64,000 bases of DNA from an uncultured Actinomycetota bacterium (GCA_963743915.1 CAVURN010000005.1:224001-288000); one strand, 5' to 3'. Positions 95-11,869 are shown, counted from the first letter of the stretch. Translations and numbers: made by a program. Notes: generated by a model from the sequence alone, not told the origin.

Positions 95-2305
95 TCAGCG
101 GCCCACCAGTCGACGGACGGTGTCCACCAGCTGGTTCTGGTCGAACTCGCTCTTGAGCAGGTAGGCGTTCGCGCCGGCGTCCAGACCGGCCCGCTTGTCC
201 GCCTCGTCCCCCCGGGAGGTCATGATCACCACGGGTACGGACTCCCATCCGCGCGTCCGACGGATCGTCCGGGTCAGGGTGAAGCCGTCCATGCCGGGCA
301 TCTCGACGTCGGAGAGCACGAGGTCGACGGGATCCCCACCCAGGCGGGCGGCGCCGTCGGCTCCGTCCACTGCCGTCACGACGTCGTAGCCGGCACCTTC
401 GAGGATCACCCGCTGGAGCTCACGCACGCCGATCGAGTCCTCGACCACCAGCACCCTTGCGCGTCCACCGCCTCGAGAGCCGGCGGCGGCCGGCGACGCC
501 GGGGCATCGGTTGCACTCTCGACCGGACGCGCCACCGGGGCATCGAGCGCCACGCCGCGCGCGTACTGCTCGATGGCCAGCTCGCGGACGTCGAGCAGCA
601 GCATGACACTGCCGTCGCTGTCGATGGTGCCCCCGCCGATGAAGGGAGGGCGTCCCAGGAAGCCGCCGAGGTCCTTGACCACGACCTCGAGCTCACCCTC
701 CAGGGCGTCGACGGCCCAGGCCAGCTGCTCGGAGGCGTTGCCGTAGCGGACGACGACGCCCACCTTCGTCTCCCGCTCGCTGTGCGCGCCGAGGGCCCGG
801 CCCAGGTCGGCCAACGGGATCGTCGATCCGTGCCGCACGAGGACCGGCGCGCCCGCGACGGTCGATGTCTCGACGTCGCCCAGGCTGATCGTCTCCACGA
901 CGTTCGTCACGGGGACGGCGTAGCGCTCCTCGCCGAGCCGTGCCACCAGGCACCGCATGACGCCAAGCGTCACCGGGAGGGTCATCACGAAGGTGGTGCC
1001 GACGCCGAACTCGCTCTCGATCTCCACCGTTCCGCCGAGGTCCTCGACCGCCGTGCGGACCACGTCGAGTCCCACGCCCCGTCCGGAGGTGGACGTGACC
1101 TCGTCGCGGGTGCTGAAGCCGGGCTGGAAGAGCACCGAGAAGAGCTGCTGTCCCGTCACCTGGCTGTCCGCGGGAAGCAGCCCACGGTCGATCGCGGAGA
1201 TCCGGAGCGCCTCCTGGTCGATGCCGTGGCCGTCGTCGGCCACCTCGATCACGATCGTCGAGCCGGCAGCTCGGGCCGAGACGGTGACGGTGGCCTGAGG
1301 CGGCTTGCCGGCAGCAGCGCGCACGTCGGGTGCGTCGCAGCCGTGGTCGACCGCATTCGTCACCAGGTGACGAAGGGCGTCCGCCACGCCGTCGAGCACG
1401 CGGGTGTCGAGCTCGACGTCCTCACCGACCAGCCGAAGCCGCACGTCCTTGCCAGTCTCGGTCGCCACCTCACGCACCAGCTGCGGGAACGCGGCCACCA
1501 CCCGACGGACCGGAACCATGGCCAGACCCATGGCGCCGTCGCGCACCTGGGCGAGACGGTTCTGCGCGTCCTCCATCGAGCCGCGCATGTCGCGCACAGC
1601 TGCCTGGAACTGGTCCCCGAGAGCCACCAGGGCGTGGATGTTCTCCGACACCTCTGGCGGAAGGGTGACATCGGTGGCCGTGGCCTGACGCAGCAGTCGC
1701 ACGACGCGGAGGTGCTCGGCCGACATCGCCGTCAGCTCCAGCACTCCACGTTCGACCCGTCGGGTCTCGAGCTCGGCCTCACCGACCACGTCCAGCAGGG
1801 CATGGACCCGGCGGACCGGGACCCGGACCGACTCACCCATCTTCGGCCGGTTGTCGACGGTGTCCGTCTCGGTGTCGTCCTCGACGACCGCAGCCCGCGG
1901 CACCTCGACCGGGTTCTCCCCGTCGAGAGCGCTCCCCAACGCGGACACGAGAGCCGCCAGGTCATCGTCGGCGATCGGACGCTCGGAGCCCGGGAGGCCG
2001 CGGCGGATGCCTTCGGCAGCCGCGAGCAGCAGGTCGACCAGGTCGCGTCGAGGGTCGAACCGGCCGTCCCGCACCGCGCCGAGGAGGTCCTCGGAGAGGT
2101 GGGCGACCTCGACGACACCCTCGAGACCGAGCATGCGTGCCGAACCCTTGACGGTGTGGGCGTCGCGGAAGAGAGCCGCGACCAGCTGCCGCGGCTGCGG
2201 GTGGCCCTCGAGCTTGAGAAGCCCGTCGCAGAGCGAAGCCAGACGGTCCTCGACTTCCTGCCGGAACGTCGCCACCAGCTCCGGGTCGTTGGCCCAGCTG
2301 CTCAT
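95..2305 (-). CDS. cheA: CheA-type histidine kinase with C-terminal receiver domain (Hpt-dimerisation-HATPase-CheW-REC; WspE/FrzE-like hybrid)
   Basis: Hpt [23 protein letters not shown]-box; DDGHG and [11 protein letters not shown]-boxes; CheW-like domain; [22 protein letters not shown] at 2305 overlaps (ATGA) the repaired stop of the upstream MCP. Confidence 0.92.
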
Positions 2306-4042
2306 GCGTCCACCTGCTCTCGATTGTCGTCGGTGGTTTTGAATTGGGCGATGGAGGAGCGACAGGTCGGCGGCGAGGGTGTTCAGCTCGGTCGCGGCGG
2401 CGGCGGCCTGCTTGGAGCCGACCGCGTACTGCCGGGACACATCAGCGACCTGACCCATCGCCGAGACCACCTGCTCCGACGCCGACCTTTGCTGCTGGGT
2501 CGCAATGGAAATCTCCTTGGCCGCAGTGGTCGTCTCATCGACCATCCCAGAGATCTTCTCCAACGCCCCCACCACATCCCGCGCCAACGCCGACCCCGCA
2601 TGCACCTGCCGCGACCCCTCCTCAGAGGCCACGATCGTCGCGTTCGTCTCCGCCTGGATCTGCGTCACGATCGACTGGATCTGCCCCGCCGACTCCTGCG
2701 ACCGCTCCGCCAACTTCCGGATCTCCGCCGCCACCACCGCAAACCCCCGACCATGCTCCCCCGCCCGAGCCGCCTCGATCGCCGCATTCAACGCCAACAA
2801 ATTCGTCTGATCAGCCAACTCATCAATCACCTGCAAAATCCGGCCGATCTCCTGACCCTTCTCCCCCAACCCCAACGCCCGCGACGCAATCACATCCACC
2901 CGAGCCGCGATCTGATCCATCGACTCCACCGACGCCGACACCGCCACCTGACCCTGCTCAGCAAACCCCAACGTCTCCGACGCGAACGCCGCCACCTGCT
3001 CCGCCGTCTCCGCGATCTGCGCCGCCGTCGCCGCCAACTCCTCAATCGTCGCGCTCGTCTCCGCCACCGCCGAGGACTGCTGCGACGCAGCAGCCGCCTG
3101 CTCCCGAGCCGCCACCAACACCTGAGACGCCGCCGCCCCAATCCGCTCCCCACCCGACCGCACCCCAGCCACCAACCCCCGCAACGACCCCAACGTGTGA
3201 TCCAGGGAGCCGGAGAGGGCGAGGATGTATTGGCTGCGCTCGAAGCCGAAGTCTGTTCCCTCGTCGAGGTCGGAGACCTCGACCCGCGCGGTGAGGTCAC
3301 CCTGGGAGGCCGCCTCGAGTGCGACAGACAGCTGGCGCACCTGGTCGACGAGGAGGGCCTGGTCCCAGCCGGTTCCCTCGGCCGTGTCGTAGAGGGTGCG
3401 GCTGACTCCACGGACGATCAGGAAGGCGGCGGGCAGACCGATGCTGAGGGCCACTACAAGGGTGAAGGTCTGCGACCCAGGTGCGGGGAGCCCTCCGACG
3501 GCGATCCACTGGCTGACCGCTGGCAACAGGGCGAGCAGTGCCGCCATCGCCCAGCCCGACGCGTAGACCAGGACCGTGCCGAGGTAGGCCGAGCCGACCA
3601 CGACAGGCAGCCACTCCGCGCTGGTCACGCCCCCCGTCCAGATAGTGGCAAGCGCCACCACGACAACCTGCGCCATGCCCAGCAGGCCGTCCCACCGGTC
3701 CGTTCGGGCGTAGGTGTGGTGCTCCCGGTAGGCGCGGACCGCCAGCAACGACGCGGCAACGGCGATCACCGCTCCGACCGTCCACACCAACCACAGCTGG
3801 GCCTGGATCGGCTCCTTCTCCGCGACGTGCCACAGGAAGCCGATGAGGACGCTGAACGAGACCAGACCCGTGTGCAGAGAGATCGTCTCGCCGACGTTGC
3901 GGCGACTGAAGCTGAGGGAGGCGCCCCCCGCCTTGGTCCGGTCGATCGCGTCCAGGACAGTGCTGACCGACGACTCACTAGACGGCCGTCCGGACGAGAC
4001 TGCACCCGGCGACGGGTCGAGCGGCGCGCTCGTCGTGCTCAC
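2302..4042 (-). CDS. methyl-accepting chemotaxis protein A (multi-TM sensor plus signalling domain); one extra base at ~2359 fuses it to cheA in the given sequence
   Basis: GTG at 4042 with AGGAGGAG RBS; hairpin-tip motif [40 protein letters not shown]; removing the extra base gives ...[19 protein letters not shown] ending at 2302. Confidence 0.88.
2328..3206. repeat. near-identical MCP signalling-domain repeat, copy A (GRINS-like skewed DNA)
   Basis: same sequence recurs at 4685, 6343, 8025 and 9759; + strand is strongly C/A-rich. Confidence 0.95.
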
Positions 4043-4116
4043 TGCTCCTCCTCGAGGCGTGCTGGGCCGCACTGGCTCAGCCCAGGCAGGGACGAGCCAC
4101 ACGGGTTCCTGATGTC

Positions 4117-11333: not shown

Positions 11334-11362
11334 CGCGCCTCCTCGTGGGGTGAAGGGACGGG

Positions 11363-11869
11363 TCAGACAGCCGCTCGACGCGCTGACGGAAGCTGGTCGC
11401 GCAGACGCAGGACCGCCTCGGTCGCGAGCAGCGCGACCGGACCGTCGACGTCCACGACCCCCTGCACGAGGGGTGCGATACCGGTCGCGATGGTCGCGGG
11501 GATCGGCTCGAGCGCGTTGGGGTCACAGTCGAGCAGGCCCGGCACCATGTCCGCGACGAGACCGACCTCGACGTCGTCCTCGGACAGCACGACGAGGCGG
11601 GCACTCGTGGGCATCGGCGACAGCGGTGCCCCCACAAGCGGCCGCAGGTCGACCACGGGCAGGACGCGCCCGCGCCAGTTCACGACGCCGGAGAGCCAAG
11701 CCGGGGCGCCGGGAACGCGGGTCACGACGGGGACCGGGACCACCTCGGCGACGCTGGCCATGTCCACGGCATAACGGGCTCCGGCGAAGCGCAGGATCAC
11801 CCCGCCGATCGGCGCGACGTGCTCGTCGGCCTCGGCGGCGTCGGCAAGGCTGGTCGGTGCTGACTCCAC
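11363..11869 (-). CDS. cheW: chemotaxis coupling protein CheW
   Basis: RYAVDMASVAEVV..VTRVPGAPAWLSGVVNWRGRVLPVVDL CheW signature; GTG start 7 nt after the -10 box. Confidence 0.9.
   Translation of the reverse strand: MESAPTSLADAAEADEHVAPIGGVILRFAGARYAVDMASVAEVVPVPVVTRVPGAPAWLSGVVNWRGRVLPVVDLRPLVGAPLSPMPTSARLVVLSEDDVEVGLVADMVPGLLDCDPNALEPIPATIATGIAPLVQGVVDVDGPVALLATEAVLRLRDQLPSARRAAV

What the first reader, a model, noticed from the sequence alone, without database searches (positions are those of the whole stretch)
2302..11869. Modular chemoreceptor array: five different sensor heads on one near-identical signalling module
Seen: between cheW and cheA lie five tandem MCP genes whose ~0.87 kb signalling-domain DNA is essentially identical (I found only two synonymous SNPs and one indel site). 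Their N-terminal membrane domains are barely alignable. Identity stops abruptly at the linker ([10 protein letters not shown]). Known: paralogous MCPs usually diverge at synonymous sites even in the conserved tip. Inference: the output module is being actively homogenised while the inputs diversify. A crossover inside the repeat would always leave intact receptors, so the array could expand, contract or swap sensors like a cassette accordion. All receptors would share one CheW/CheA interface and could co-assemble. This is my best candidate for an undescribed system.
Basis: partly seen in the sequence, partly recalled or inferred. Interest (0 to 1): 0.92.

Follow-up and report, generated by a model that had tools for sequence, protein, structure and literature searches.

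The report
Tandem chemoreceptors sharing one homogenised signalling module
Five neighbouring chemoreceptor genes in an uncultured actinobacterium keep their signalling halves almost letter-identical by copying from one another, while their membrane sensor halves stay old and different; this is a clear case of a known evolutionary process.

Summary
On the minus strand lie FtsH-like, CheW, five MCP genes, then a CheA-CheW-REC hybrid. The five MCPs share an ~845-nt signalling module with 2 synonymous SNPs and one 1-bp indel. Their heads are homologous 6-TM domains, only 18-32% identical.

In a tree of 65 tails from 22 loci, tails group by genome: 22 label changes against a minimum of 21. In a tree of 58 heads, heads never group by genome and form cross-genome orthologue groups. 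Four-fold sites differ by a median 0.006 within genomes and 0.34 between them. This is concerted evolution by gene conversion and unequal crossing-over.

Copy number runs from 1 to 7, unit order differs between relatives, and a duplicated unit and a truncated tail remnant exist.

Two corrections. The indel, which fuses MCP1 to CheA, and a frameshift in the first MCP are probably assembly errors. Near-identical MCP C-terminal halves are already described in Campylobacter (PMC6433261).

The pathway looks non-flagellar. Verdict: a new variant of a known kind, of moderate interest.

The parts
95..2305 (-). CheA hybrid kinase (Hpt, HATPase_c, CheW-like, C-terminal receiver), 736 aa from the ATG at 2305
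   Evidence: Pfam domains on ORF 95-4102. ATG located at 2305. Orthologues sit directly after the last MCP in 22 of 22 loci.
2302..4102 (-). MCP copy 5 in transcription order (head type E, CheA-proximal). The start codon is uncertain; 4102 is the longest ORF. As assembled it reads in frame into CheA because of an extra base at 2360. Without that base the stop would overlap the CheA ATG.
   Evidence: Head orthologues are L001_7, L002_4, L004_3 and L003_4.
2339..3183 (-). Homogenised signalling module, copy 5
4689..6248 (-). MCP copy 4 (head type D), intact 519-aa ORF ending ...[12 protein letters not shown]
4705..5548 (-). Homogenised signalling module, copy 4
6336..7967 (-). MCP copy 3 (head type C). 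The C-terminal ~10 codons are frameshifted by the extra base at 6384.
6363..7207 (-). Homogenised signalling module, copy 3
7964..9598 (-). MCP copy 2 (head type B), intact 544-aa ORF
8025..8868 (-). Homogenised signalling module, copy 2
9750..11333 (-). MCP copy 1 (head type A, CheW-proximal). As assembled it is broken twice: a frame change between 10671 and 10710, and the extra base at 9793.
   Evidence: Contigs of X1, X2 and X15 restore the frame at 10685-10706, and contigs of X1, X3 and X15 lack one base at 9796.
9772..10616 (-). Homogenised signalling module, copy 1
11363..11842 (-). CheW adaptor. The exact start is uncertain; the ORF runs up to 12232.
   Evidence: PF01584 at E 3e-29. tblastn self-match at 11366-11842.
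11914..13917 (-). FtsH-like AAA + M41 peptidase, a conserved upstream neighbour of the operon
   Evidence: Pfam. Found upstream of CheW in 21 of 21 related loci.
1..13 (-). First bases of a REC-GAF response-regulator gene that continues beyond the window (L071:17055-18014). It is the conserved gene after CheA.
   Evidence: Pfam Response_reg + GAF. Found after CheA in 21 of 21 related loci at 56-97% identity.

Best explanation
This is a conserved operon, cheW - mcp(n) - cheA(REC) - REC-GAF, of an uncultured, apparently flagellum-less actinobacterial lineage. The single receptor slot has expanded into a tandem array, five units here and 1-7 in relatives. Each unit has an old, divergent 6-TM membrane sensor head and a ~845-nt cytoplasmic signalling module. 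The heads are true orthologues across genomes, so the duplications predate the splits between genera. The signalling modules evolve in concert. Homology-dependent, non-reciprocal recombination (gene conversion) and unequal crossing-over between the direct repeats keep overwriting one copy with another. Tails are therefore ~99-100% identical within a genome even at synonymous sites, yet differ 2-30% between genomes. The tract stops where homology stops, at the head/linker junction and at the stop codon. The same recombination adds, deletes and reorders units. What is shown: the identity pattern, the two opposing trees, the conserved boundaries, and the variation in copy number and order. What is inferred: the RecA-type mechanism, and any benefit of an identical CheW/CheA docking surface for all receptors of the genome's only detected CheA. 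The 1-bp indel and the copy-1 frameshift are most likely consensus errors of a long-read assembly.
For: (1) Within-genome tail DNA identity is 99.6-99.9% in the window, 100% in L002, 99.6-100% in L004, 98.2-99.9% in L005, 96.1-99.5% in L006 and 95.0-99.9% in L007. Between-genome medians are 67-98%. Further arrays L024-L027, L033 and L040 show 98.8-100%.
(2) In the tail tree (65 tails, 22 sources), 12 of 14 multi-copy genomes form one clade each. All labels need 22 changes against a minimum of 21; the shuffled mean is 52.8.
(3) In the head tree (58 heads), genome labels need 49 changes against a minimum of 20; the shuffled mean is 47. Window heads pair with heads of other genomes, for example W_2 with L001_6 (74%, support 100*) and W_1 with L001_1 and L003_1 (100*).
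(4) Four-fold-site differences have a median of 0.006 (range 0-0.052, 78 pairs) within genomes and 0.341 (1692 pairs) between genomes.
(5) Repeat boundaries lie within 0-30 nt at the 5' end and 0-67 nt at the 3' end of the same positions in 14 arrays. The exception is the B/B' pairs of L002 and L004, whose identity runs on for 90 nt or more.
(6) Variants are mosaic. Four-gamete failures are 3 of 3 site pairs in the window, 2 of 15 in L001 and 4 of 10 in L007. Neighbouring copies share variants, for example TTTGGG in L001.
(7) All 22 of 22 loci are CheW-MCP(n)-CheA with n=1-7. L002 carries a 231-nt tail remnant that is 99.6% identical to its own tails.
(8) In independent short-read contigs, head contigs end 30 nt or less inside the tail. 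In X1 and X3 the two bins lying wholly inside the tail copy on which the multi-mapping contigs were placed (2431-3092) have depth 115-272, against 13-53 in head bins.
Against: Every resolved multi-copy array comes from metagenome-assembled genomes, most with the same 'MFD' naming and so probably one pipeline. Consensus polishing with multi-mapped reads could exaggerate within-genome identity. Only contigs, not raw reads, could be laid, so per-copy SNPs and unit order in the window are not independently verified. Depth from contigs is not a copy number. Homogenisation is incomplete in some genomes: L007_3 differs by up to 5%, and L006 falls to 96.1% but is riddled with frameshifts. One array member in L001 and L003 (type X, 59-60% aa identity to the window tail, 63-73% DNA identity to its neighbours' tails) is not homogenised. 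Nothing here shows selection for identical tails. A neutral by-product of tandem repeats fits equally well. No expression data were available: no run listed is on record as RNA.
Confidence: 0.88

Rival explanations
1. Assembly or polishing artefact: the five tails are really divergent paralogues, and consensus polishing or collapsed-repeat assembly made them identical.
For: The window does carry probable consensus errors. An otherwise identical 305-nt contig of X2 has two 1-nt gaps at 10688 and 10706. The high-depth tail contig of X1, X3 and X15 lacks one base at 9796. All resolved arrays are MAGs.
Against: The same pattern occurs in 14 multi-copy genomes of several genera, each with its own tail sequence. 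Short-read head contigs of four runs break within 30 nt of the tail boundary, and depth rises in tail bins, as expected for true repeats. In short-read MAGs the contigs end in or at the tail (L019 at 954-1799 of 1799; L008 has a partial tail at its end). In the rows shown of the table of differing bases (40 shown, 123 not shown), the only tail positions are 3075 and 3076.
Confidence: 0.05
2. Very recent whole-gene duplications followed by extremely fast divergence of the heads, with no ongoing conversion.
For: One pair (types B and B' in L002 and L004) does look like a younger duplication: heads 61-62% identical, with identity extending 90 nt or more upstream of the usual boundary.
Against: Heads are 18-32% identical within the window. 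Each has a closer orthologue in other genomes whose tails differ by 11-14% in DNA, so the duplications predate speciation. Without conversion, paralogous tails would be at least as divergent as orthologous ones.
Confidence: 0.02
3. Purifying selection alone, including codon-level constraint, keeps the tails identical.
For: The tail protein is highly conserved across the clade: mean column identity 89% with many invariant columns.
Against: Four-fold degenerate sites differ by a median 0.34 between genomes but 0.006 within genomes. Selection on the protein cannot produce genome-specific synonymous identity.
Confidence: 0.02
4. Selected cassette system: identical tails are maintained by selection as a common docking and recombination module, so that populations can quickly gain, lose or reorder sensor heads.
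For: Copy number is 1-7 and order is shuffled between relatives. The boundary is conserved in 14 arrays. Only one CheA-type CheW domain was found in the genome. A remnant and a duplicate unit exist.
Against: All of these are also expected from neutral recombination among tandem repeats. No within-population variation could be examined. One member (type X) functions in the array with a divergent tail.
Confidence: 0.3

Closest known systems
Campylobacter jejuni/coli group A transducer-like proteins Tlp2, Tlp3, Tlp4 and Tlp11 (PMC6433261; passages read)
   Same: [quoted passage not shown] The shared halves form large repeat units that take part in recombination.
   Different: In Campylobacter the genes are dispersed and the repeats mediate chromosomal inversions. 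Here they are tandem direct repeats inside one cheW-cheA operon, with 1-7 units. Campylobacter heads are periplasmic dCache domains; these are 6-TM membrane domains without a Pfam family. DNA-level identity in Campylobacter could not be checked, because the alignments are in supplements that are closed.
Concerted evolution by gene conversion in bacterial multi-copy genes (rRNA operons, tufA/tufB); recalled, not checked in a call
   Same: Paralogues are more alike within a genome than orthologues between genomes, including at silent sites. Conversion tracts are mosaic.
   Different: Here only one module of a two-module gene is homogenised, so the process couples a constant output to diverse inputs.
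Bacillus subtilis tandem MCP cluster tlpA-mcpA-tlpB-mcpB; recalled, not checked in a call
   Same: Several MCP genes lie head to tail.
   Different: As recalled, those paralogues are clearly diverged in their C-terminal domains and are not placed between cheW and cheA.
Six-helix membrane anchors of membrane adenylyl cyclases (8sl3_A, 6r3q_A) and of the diguanylate cyclase ImcA (8wcn_B); MASE-type membrane sensor domains
   Same: The predicted head (pLDDT 93.3) aligns over 203-219 of 240 residues with these 6-TM-plus-helix anchors at Z 10.7-12.3. The nearest named language-model clusters are MASE11, MASE6, MASE8 and MASE2 at 0.81-0.83.
   Different: Z below about 13 for helical bundles may reflect only a common arrangement (note). 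Foldseek found nothing at E<=0.001. No Pfam or NCBIfam match exists. Atlas scores under 0.9 are leads only.
Non-flagellar chemosensory pathways with CheA-receiver hybrids (the Wsp, Frz and Chp types); recalled
   Same: CheA carries a C-terminal receiver. No FHIPEP was found in 0 of 20 genomes of the family, and no flagellin in the window's own genome. A REC-GAF regulator follows CheA in 21 of 21 related loci.
   Different: The output domain is GAF, not GGDEF or a pilus regulator. The pathway class was not assigned with dedicated models.

Membership tests
Methyl-accepting chemotaxis protein (MCP) | MCPsignal cytoplasmic domain (PF00015) above the curated cut-off | tested here: met
   All five copies score 146-148 bits against a cut-off of 34.6.
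Methyl-accepting chemotaxis protein (MCP) | Membrane-spanning N-terminal input region | tested here: met
   Hydropathy segments. AF2 model with six long helices plus a long exit helix, pLDDT 93.3.
Methyl-accepting chemotaxis protein (MCP) | HAMP linker between the membrane and the signalling domain | tested here: inconclusive
   Only one weak HAMP hit, E 0.034 at 14.9 bits against a cut-off of 25, in copy 5. The other four heads have none. A conserved V.ELS.AL...A.GDL helix is present.
Methyl-accepting chemotaxis protein (MCP) | Genomic linkage to CheW and CheA | tested here: met
   Conserved in 22 of 22 loci.
Concerted evolution / gene conversion among paralogues | Paralogues within a genome are more alike than orthologues between genomes | tested here: met
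Concerted evolution / gene conversion among paralogues | The pattern holds at synonymous sites | tested here: met
   Four-fold sites: 0.006 within genomes, 0.341 between.
Concerted evolution / gene conversion among paralogues | Flanking, non-converted sequence follows orthology | tested here: met
   Head tree.
Concerted evolution / gene conversion among paralogues | Mosaic tracts (recombination signal among copies) | tested here: met
   Four-gamete failures in the window (3 of 3), L001 (2 of 15) and L007 (4 of 10). The window's sites are few, and one of them is the suspect indel.
Campylobacter-type shared-C-terminus Tlp repeats | Dispersed copies whose repeats mediate inversions | tested here: not met
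   All five copies are tandem and on the same strand. The four other MCPs of the genome are only 49-60% identical in the tail.
Campylobacter-type shared-C-terminus Tlp repeats | Periplasmic dCache sensor | tested here: not met
   No Cache or other Pfam family on any head at E<=1.
MASE membrane sensor families | Match to a MASE Pfam model | tested here: inconclusive
   No Pfam hit. Atlas nearest named clusters are MASE11, 6, 8 and 2 at 0.81-0.83, below the 0.9 lead level.
Non-flagellar (Tfp/ACF-type) chemosensory pathway | Absence of a flagellar apparatus, and CheA with a receiver | tested here: met
   FHIPEP in 0 of 20 genomes of the family, 12 of them at 90% completeness or more. Flagellin_N and FHIPEP not found in the window's own genome, 90% complete. 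Response_reg on CheA.
Non-flagellar (Tfp/ACF-type) chemosensory pathway | Assignment to a named pathway class by class-specific models | not testable with these tools
   No such models are in the libraries offered.

The most novel reading that the evidence does not exclude
The identical tails are not only a by-product. They act as a built-in recombination and docking module that makes the cheW-cheA slot a RecA-driven sensor cassette array. Units of a new 6-TM sensor family would be excised, duplicated, deleted and reinserted at any tail. Populations of these flagellum-less actinobacteria would then vary their sensory repertoire quickly, while every receptor stays compatible with the single CheA-REC / REC-GAF output.
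Probability: 0.25. Interest if true: 0.75.

Novelty: new variant of a known kind. Interest (0 to 1): 0.55.

Why it matters
This is an unusually clean natural case of module-specific concerted evolution in a signalling protein. One operon slot holds up to seven receptors whose outputs are kept identical while their inputs are ancient and different. It offers a natural experiment on how far receptor tails may diverge before they stop sharing a kinase array. It shows how chemoreceptor repertoires can grow, shrink and reshuffle by simple homologous recombination. It also points to an uncharacterised 6-TM sensor family and a non-flagellar Che pathway with a REC-GAF output in an uncultured soil and sediment actinobacterial lineage. 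Practically, such arrays collapse in short-read assemblies and attract consensus errors in long-read ones, so receptor counts in MAGs of this clade are unreliable.

Tried and rejected
Head family searches found nothing usable. Pfam at E<=1 gave only sub-threshold noise (VIT_2, DUF2070, DUF6962, a weak HAMP). NCBIfam matched only the tail. Foldseek against PDB gave no hit at E<=0.001. A word-based homologue search with head B found only 10 proteins, all MCPs.

Reads: all 24 runs offered were Logan contigs, none on record as RNA, so unit number, order and expression could not be tested. A joint in X15 (7232 to 4693, 31-nt side, one contig at depth 5.6) and several loose ends leaving the tail start at 7232-7233 in X1 and X3 might reflect other arrangements or other heads. 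They are too short to interpret and were not pursued. Bins without cover inside tail copies (4748-5409, 6403-6733) only reflect multi-mapping contigs being placed on one copy.

Phylum survey by proxy (PF00015 in 301 genomes; 150 of 231 matches listed): only the window's genome showed three or more neighbouring hits with identical scores. One pair in G104 had identical scores 6.8 kb apart. This is a crude proxy, and 81 matches were not listed. G041 and G213 are unpublished and enter only the tallies.

Literature: no paper held both 'concerted evolution' and 'methyl-accepting'. 'Gene conversion' plus 'methyl-accepting chemotaxis' gave 26 papers, 15 of them listed; judging from their titles and abstract openings, 9 are on Treponema genomes and none appears to be about MCP arrays. 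Two other searches gave nothing relevant, and one search found nothing on actinobacterial chemoreceptor arrays.

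Full report
ANATOMY. The window is G000:C5:224001-288000, from a 2.92-Mb, 5-contig genome that is 90% complete. All relevant genes are on the minus strand.
- FtsH-like AAA/M41 protease, 11914-13917.
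- CheW, about 11363-11842.
- Five MCP genes.
- A CheA with Hpt, HATPase_c, CheW-like and C-terminal receiver domains, 95-2305.
- The gene after CheA starts at window position 13, runs out of the window, and encodes a REC-GAF response regulator.

The own-genome search found nine MCPsignal hits: the five here and four elsewhere. The closest of the four is 77% identical in DNA. A CheW-domain search found three hits: this CheW, the CheW-like domain of this CheA, and a second CheW next to CheB and CheR on contig 1.

THE OBSERVATION. Five direct repeats lie 1659-2365 nt apart. In an alignment of the five genes, every 50-column bin from about column 1000 to 1800 is 98-100% identical in all five, while the bins before and after are 0-20%. 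The block of about 845 nt has only three variable sites: two SNPs and a 1-bp indel. The SNPs are silent. There are no amino-acid differences over 272 codons and 0-1 differences at 162 four-fold sites. The heads are 18-32% identical in protein.

- The indel is an extra base at 2360, 6384 and 9793, in copies 5, 3 and 1 by transcription order. It shifts the last ~10 codons from ...[12 protein letters not shown] to ...[12 protein letters not shown]... In the CheA-proximal copy it fuses the MCP in frame to CheA, giving an ORF of 1335 aa.
- The CheW-proximal copy has a further frame change between 10671 and 10710.

Short-read contigs of four public runs were laid on the region.
- The high-depth tail contig of X1, X3 and X15 lacks one base at 9796. 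By my own reading of the window sequence, removing that base gives ...[10 protein letters not shown], the C-terminus seen in relatives.
- At the second break, X1 lacks two bases (10687, 10706). X2 lacks two (10688, 10706) in a 305-nt contig that otherwise has no mismatch. X15 has a net +1. All three restore the frame.

I therefore read both breaks, and the MCP-CheA fusion, as consensus errors of a long-read assembly or as strain-private lesions, not as design. No relative showed such a fusion: open frames over the near-full-length tail matches (282 or more of 290 residues) in other genomes were 398-951 aa.

IS THE IDENTITY CONCERTED EVOLUTION? A search of 41 genomes, own included, found tail relatives in 27, among them 19 of 19 genomes of the same family. 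I fetched twelve loci and then 58 more from genome contigs; seven of the 58 are the same contigs as earlier loci. All relatives are MAGs of uncultured Actinomycetota. Tandem arrays of 2-7 tails occur in 14 genomes.
- Tail DNA identity within a genome is 99.6-99.9% (window), 100% (L002), 99.6-100% (L004), 98.2-99.9% (L005), 96.1-99.5% (L006, an assembly full of frameshifts), 95.0-99.9% (L007) and 98.8-100% (L024-L027, L033, L040). Between-genome medians are 67-98%.
- In a maximum-likelihood tree of 65 tails from 22 sources, 12 of 14 multi-copy genomes are single clades. All genome labels need 22 changes, against a minimum of 21 and a shuffled mean of 52.8. The one exception is a distinct member (type X: L001_3 and L003_2). 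It is 59-60% identical in protein to the window tail and 63-73% identical in DNA to the other tails of its own array. It groups by orthology and evidently escapes homogenisation.
- The head tree shows the opposite. Of 65 heads, 58 were used. Seven were dropped because the in-frame head was shorter than 215 aa (frameshift or contig end). The window's copy 1 was used only up to its break. Genome labels need 49 changes, against a minimum of 20 and a shuffled mean of 47. Each window head has its nearest relative in another genome: W_1 with L001_1 and L003_1 (66%), W_2 with L001_6 (74%), W_3 with L002_1, W_4 with L001_2 (46%), and W_5 with L002_4, L004_3 and L001_7.
- Four-fold degenerate sites differ by a median of 0.006 within genomes (78 pairs, range 0-0.052) and 0.341 between genomes (1692 pairs). 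Copies with indels distort some amino-acid figures in that call, but not this contrast.

It excludes purifying selection alone and recent duplication as explanations.

MECHANISM. The repeat boundaries sit at the same two places in all 14 arrays. The 5' boundary is within 0-30 nt of the ...TLGS|LRGLV junction, and the 3' boundary is within 0-67 nt of the end of the gene. In L002 and L004 a younger pair of heads (B and B', 61-62% identical) shares identity 90 nt or more further upstream. This fits tracts that extend as far as homology allows. Variable sites are mosaic, with four-gamete failures in 3 of 3 site pairs in the window, 2 of 15 in L001 and 4 of 10 in L007. Neighbouring copies tend to share variants. 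I infer RecA-type gene conversion plus unequal crossing-over between direct repeats. The enzyme-level mechanism is not shown.

ACCORDION. All 22 loci examined have CheW, then 1-7 MCP units, then CheA. FtsH-like upstream and REC-GAF downstream are present in 21 of 21 relatives. Using the head clades, the unit order is A-B-C-D-E in the window. L001 has A-D-X-C-F-B-E, L003 has A-X-D'-E, L002 has C-B'-B-E, and L004 has B'-B-E. L002 carries, directly after CheW, a 231-nt 3' tail remnant that is 99.6% identical to its own tails. That looks like the scar of a deleted unit. L007 has a 1812-aa repetitive ORF inserted in the array. Expansion, contraction and reshuffling have therefore happened between species. 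Whether they happen within populations could not be tested, because no raw long reads were offered.

ARTEFACT CHECK. All resolved arrays are MAGs, so polishing could inflate identity. Four points argue against a pure artefact.
- Each genome has its own tail sequence.
- Short-read head contigs in four runs stop 30 nt or less inside the tail (records at 3177, 5519, 7204, 8862, 7197, 8858, 10596 and 10600).
- In X1 and X3 the two bins lying wholly inside the tail copy that received the multi-mapping contigs (2431-3092) have depth 115-272, against 13-53 in head bins.
- In the rows shown of the table of differing bases (40 shown, 123 not shown), the only tail positions are 3075 and 3076.

In addition, short-read MAG contigs of relatives end in or at the tail. 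Contig depth is not a copy number, so this is supportive, not decisive.

THE HEADS AND THE PATHWAY. The heads match no Pfam or NCBIfam model. Across 58 heads they share motifs: RR..ET...H, T..WD..T, TGG...P.W, and V.ELS.AL...A.GDL. An AlphaFold2 model from 60 aligned sequences has pLDDT 93.3 and shows six long helices plus a long exit helix. Foldseek found no PDB hit at E<=0.001. VIA-align ranked the 6-TM anchors of adenylyl cyclase 5 (Z 12.3, 219 of 240 residues aligned), ImcA (Z 11.4) and adenylyl cyclase 9 (Z 10.7) first. For helical bundles that level may mean only a common arrangement. The protein atlas gave MASE-type clusters at 0.81-0.83 as the nearest named ones, which is a lead only. 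So the sensors are a membrane-embedded, MASE-like 6-TM family of unknown ligand.

Neither flagellin nor FHIPEP was found in the window's own genome. FHIPEP was found in 0 of 20 genomes of the family, 12 of them at 90% completeness or more. Seven T2SSE-type ATPases are present. With a CheA-receiver hybrid and a conserved REC-GAF gene, the pathway is most likely non-flagellar. Its output is unknown.

COMPARISON WITH WHAT IS KNOWN. The closest described case is Campylobacter. [quoted passage not shown] The underlying alignments are in supplements I could not open. The present case differs in four ways: the tandem, same-strand arrangement inside the cheW-cheA operon; the variable unit number; the heads; and the phylum. 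No paper in the searchable library pairs 'concerted evolution' with 'methyl-accepting'. Searches found nothing on such arrays. In a crude survey of 301 genomes of the phylum, only this genome showed three or more adjacent MCPsignal hits with identical scores among the 150 listed matches.

VERDICT. The feature is real and well supported, and it is explained by a known process. I rate it a new variant of a known kind and of moderate interest.

Noticed in passing
window 2302-2360 and ORF 95-4102 (-): As assembled, the last MCP reads in frame into CheA, giving a 1335-aa MCP-CheA-REC fusion. The cause is one extra base at 2360. Without it the MCP stop would overlap the CheA ATG at 2305. No relative shows a fusion, and short-read tail contigs lack one base, so it is probably an assembly error.
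   Followed up: yes
window 10671-10710 (-): There is a frame break in the linker of the CheW-proximal MCP. Contigs of X1, X2 and X15 differ here by indels that restore the frame, and the X2 contig is otherwise identical.
   Followed up: yes
window 1-13 and L071:17055-18014 (-): A REC-GAF response regulator follows CheA. It is conserved after CheA in 21 of 21 related loci at 56-97% identity, more conserved than CheA itself in the same genus. It is the likely output of the pathway.
   Followed up: partly
whole genome G000 and 19 genomes of its family: No FHIPEP (FlhA) was found in 0 of 20 genomes, and no flagellin in the window's own genome, although it has 9 MCPs, CheA, two CheW, CheB and CheR. 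The chemosensory pathway appears to be non-flagellar. Seven T2SSE-type ATPases are present.
   Followed up: partly
L001:12168-13732 and L003:5719-7280: One array member (type X) has a tail only 59-60% identical in protein to the window tail and 63-73% identical in DNA to its neighbours' tails. It groups by orthology across genomes, so it sits inside the array but escapes homogenisation.
   Followed up: partly
L002:3856-4086: A 231-nt 3' fragment of a tail lies directly after CheW. It has no head and is 99.6% identical to the tails of the same genome. It is probably the scar of a deleted unit.
   Followed up: yes
L002 units 2-3 and L004 units 1-2: Two adjacent units carry related heads (B and B', 61-62% identical). 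Their identity extends 90 nt or more upstream of the usual repeat boundary. This is either a younger duplication or a conversion tract spreading into the linker.
   Followed up: partly
L007:7164-12600 approx.: An ORF of 1812 aa with internal repeats is inserted between units 2 and 3 of that genome's array.
   Followed up: no
window 11914-13917 (-): An FtsH-like AAA + M41 protease gene lies directly upstream of CheW in the window and in 21 of 21 related loci. Any functional link to the chemosensory operon is unknown.
   Followed up: partly
G104:C16:19219-19683 and 26066-26530: Elsewhere in the phylum, two MCPsignal hits 6.8 kb apart have identical scores (190.1 bits). This may be another homogenised pair.
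   Followed up: no
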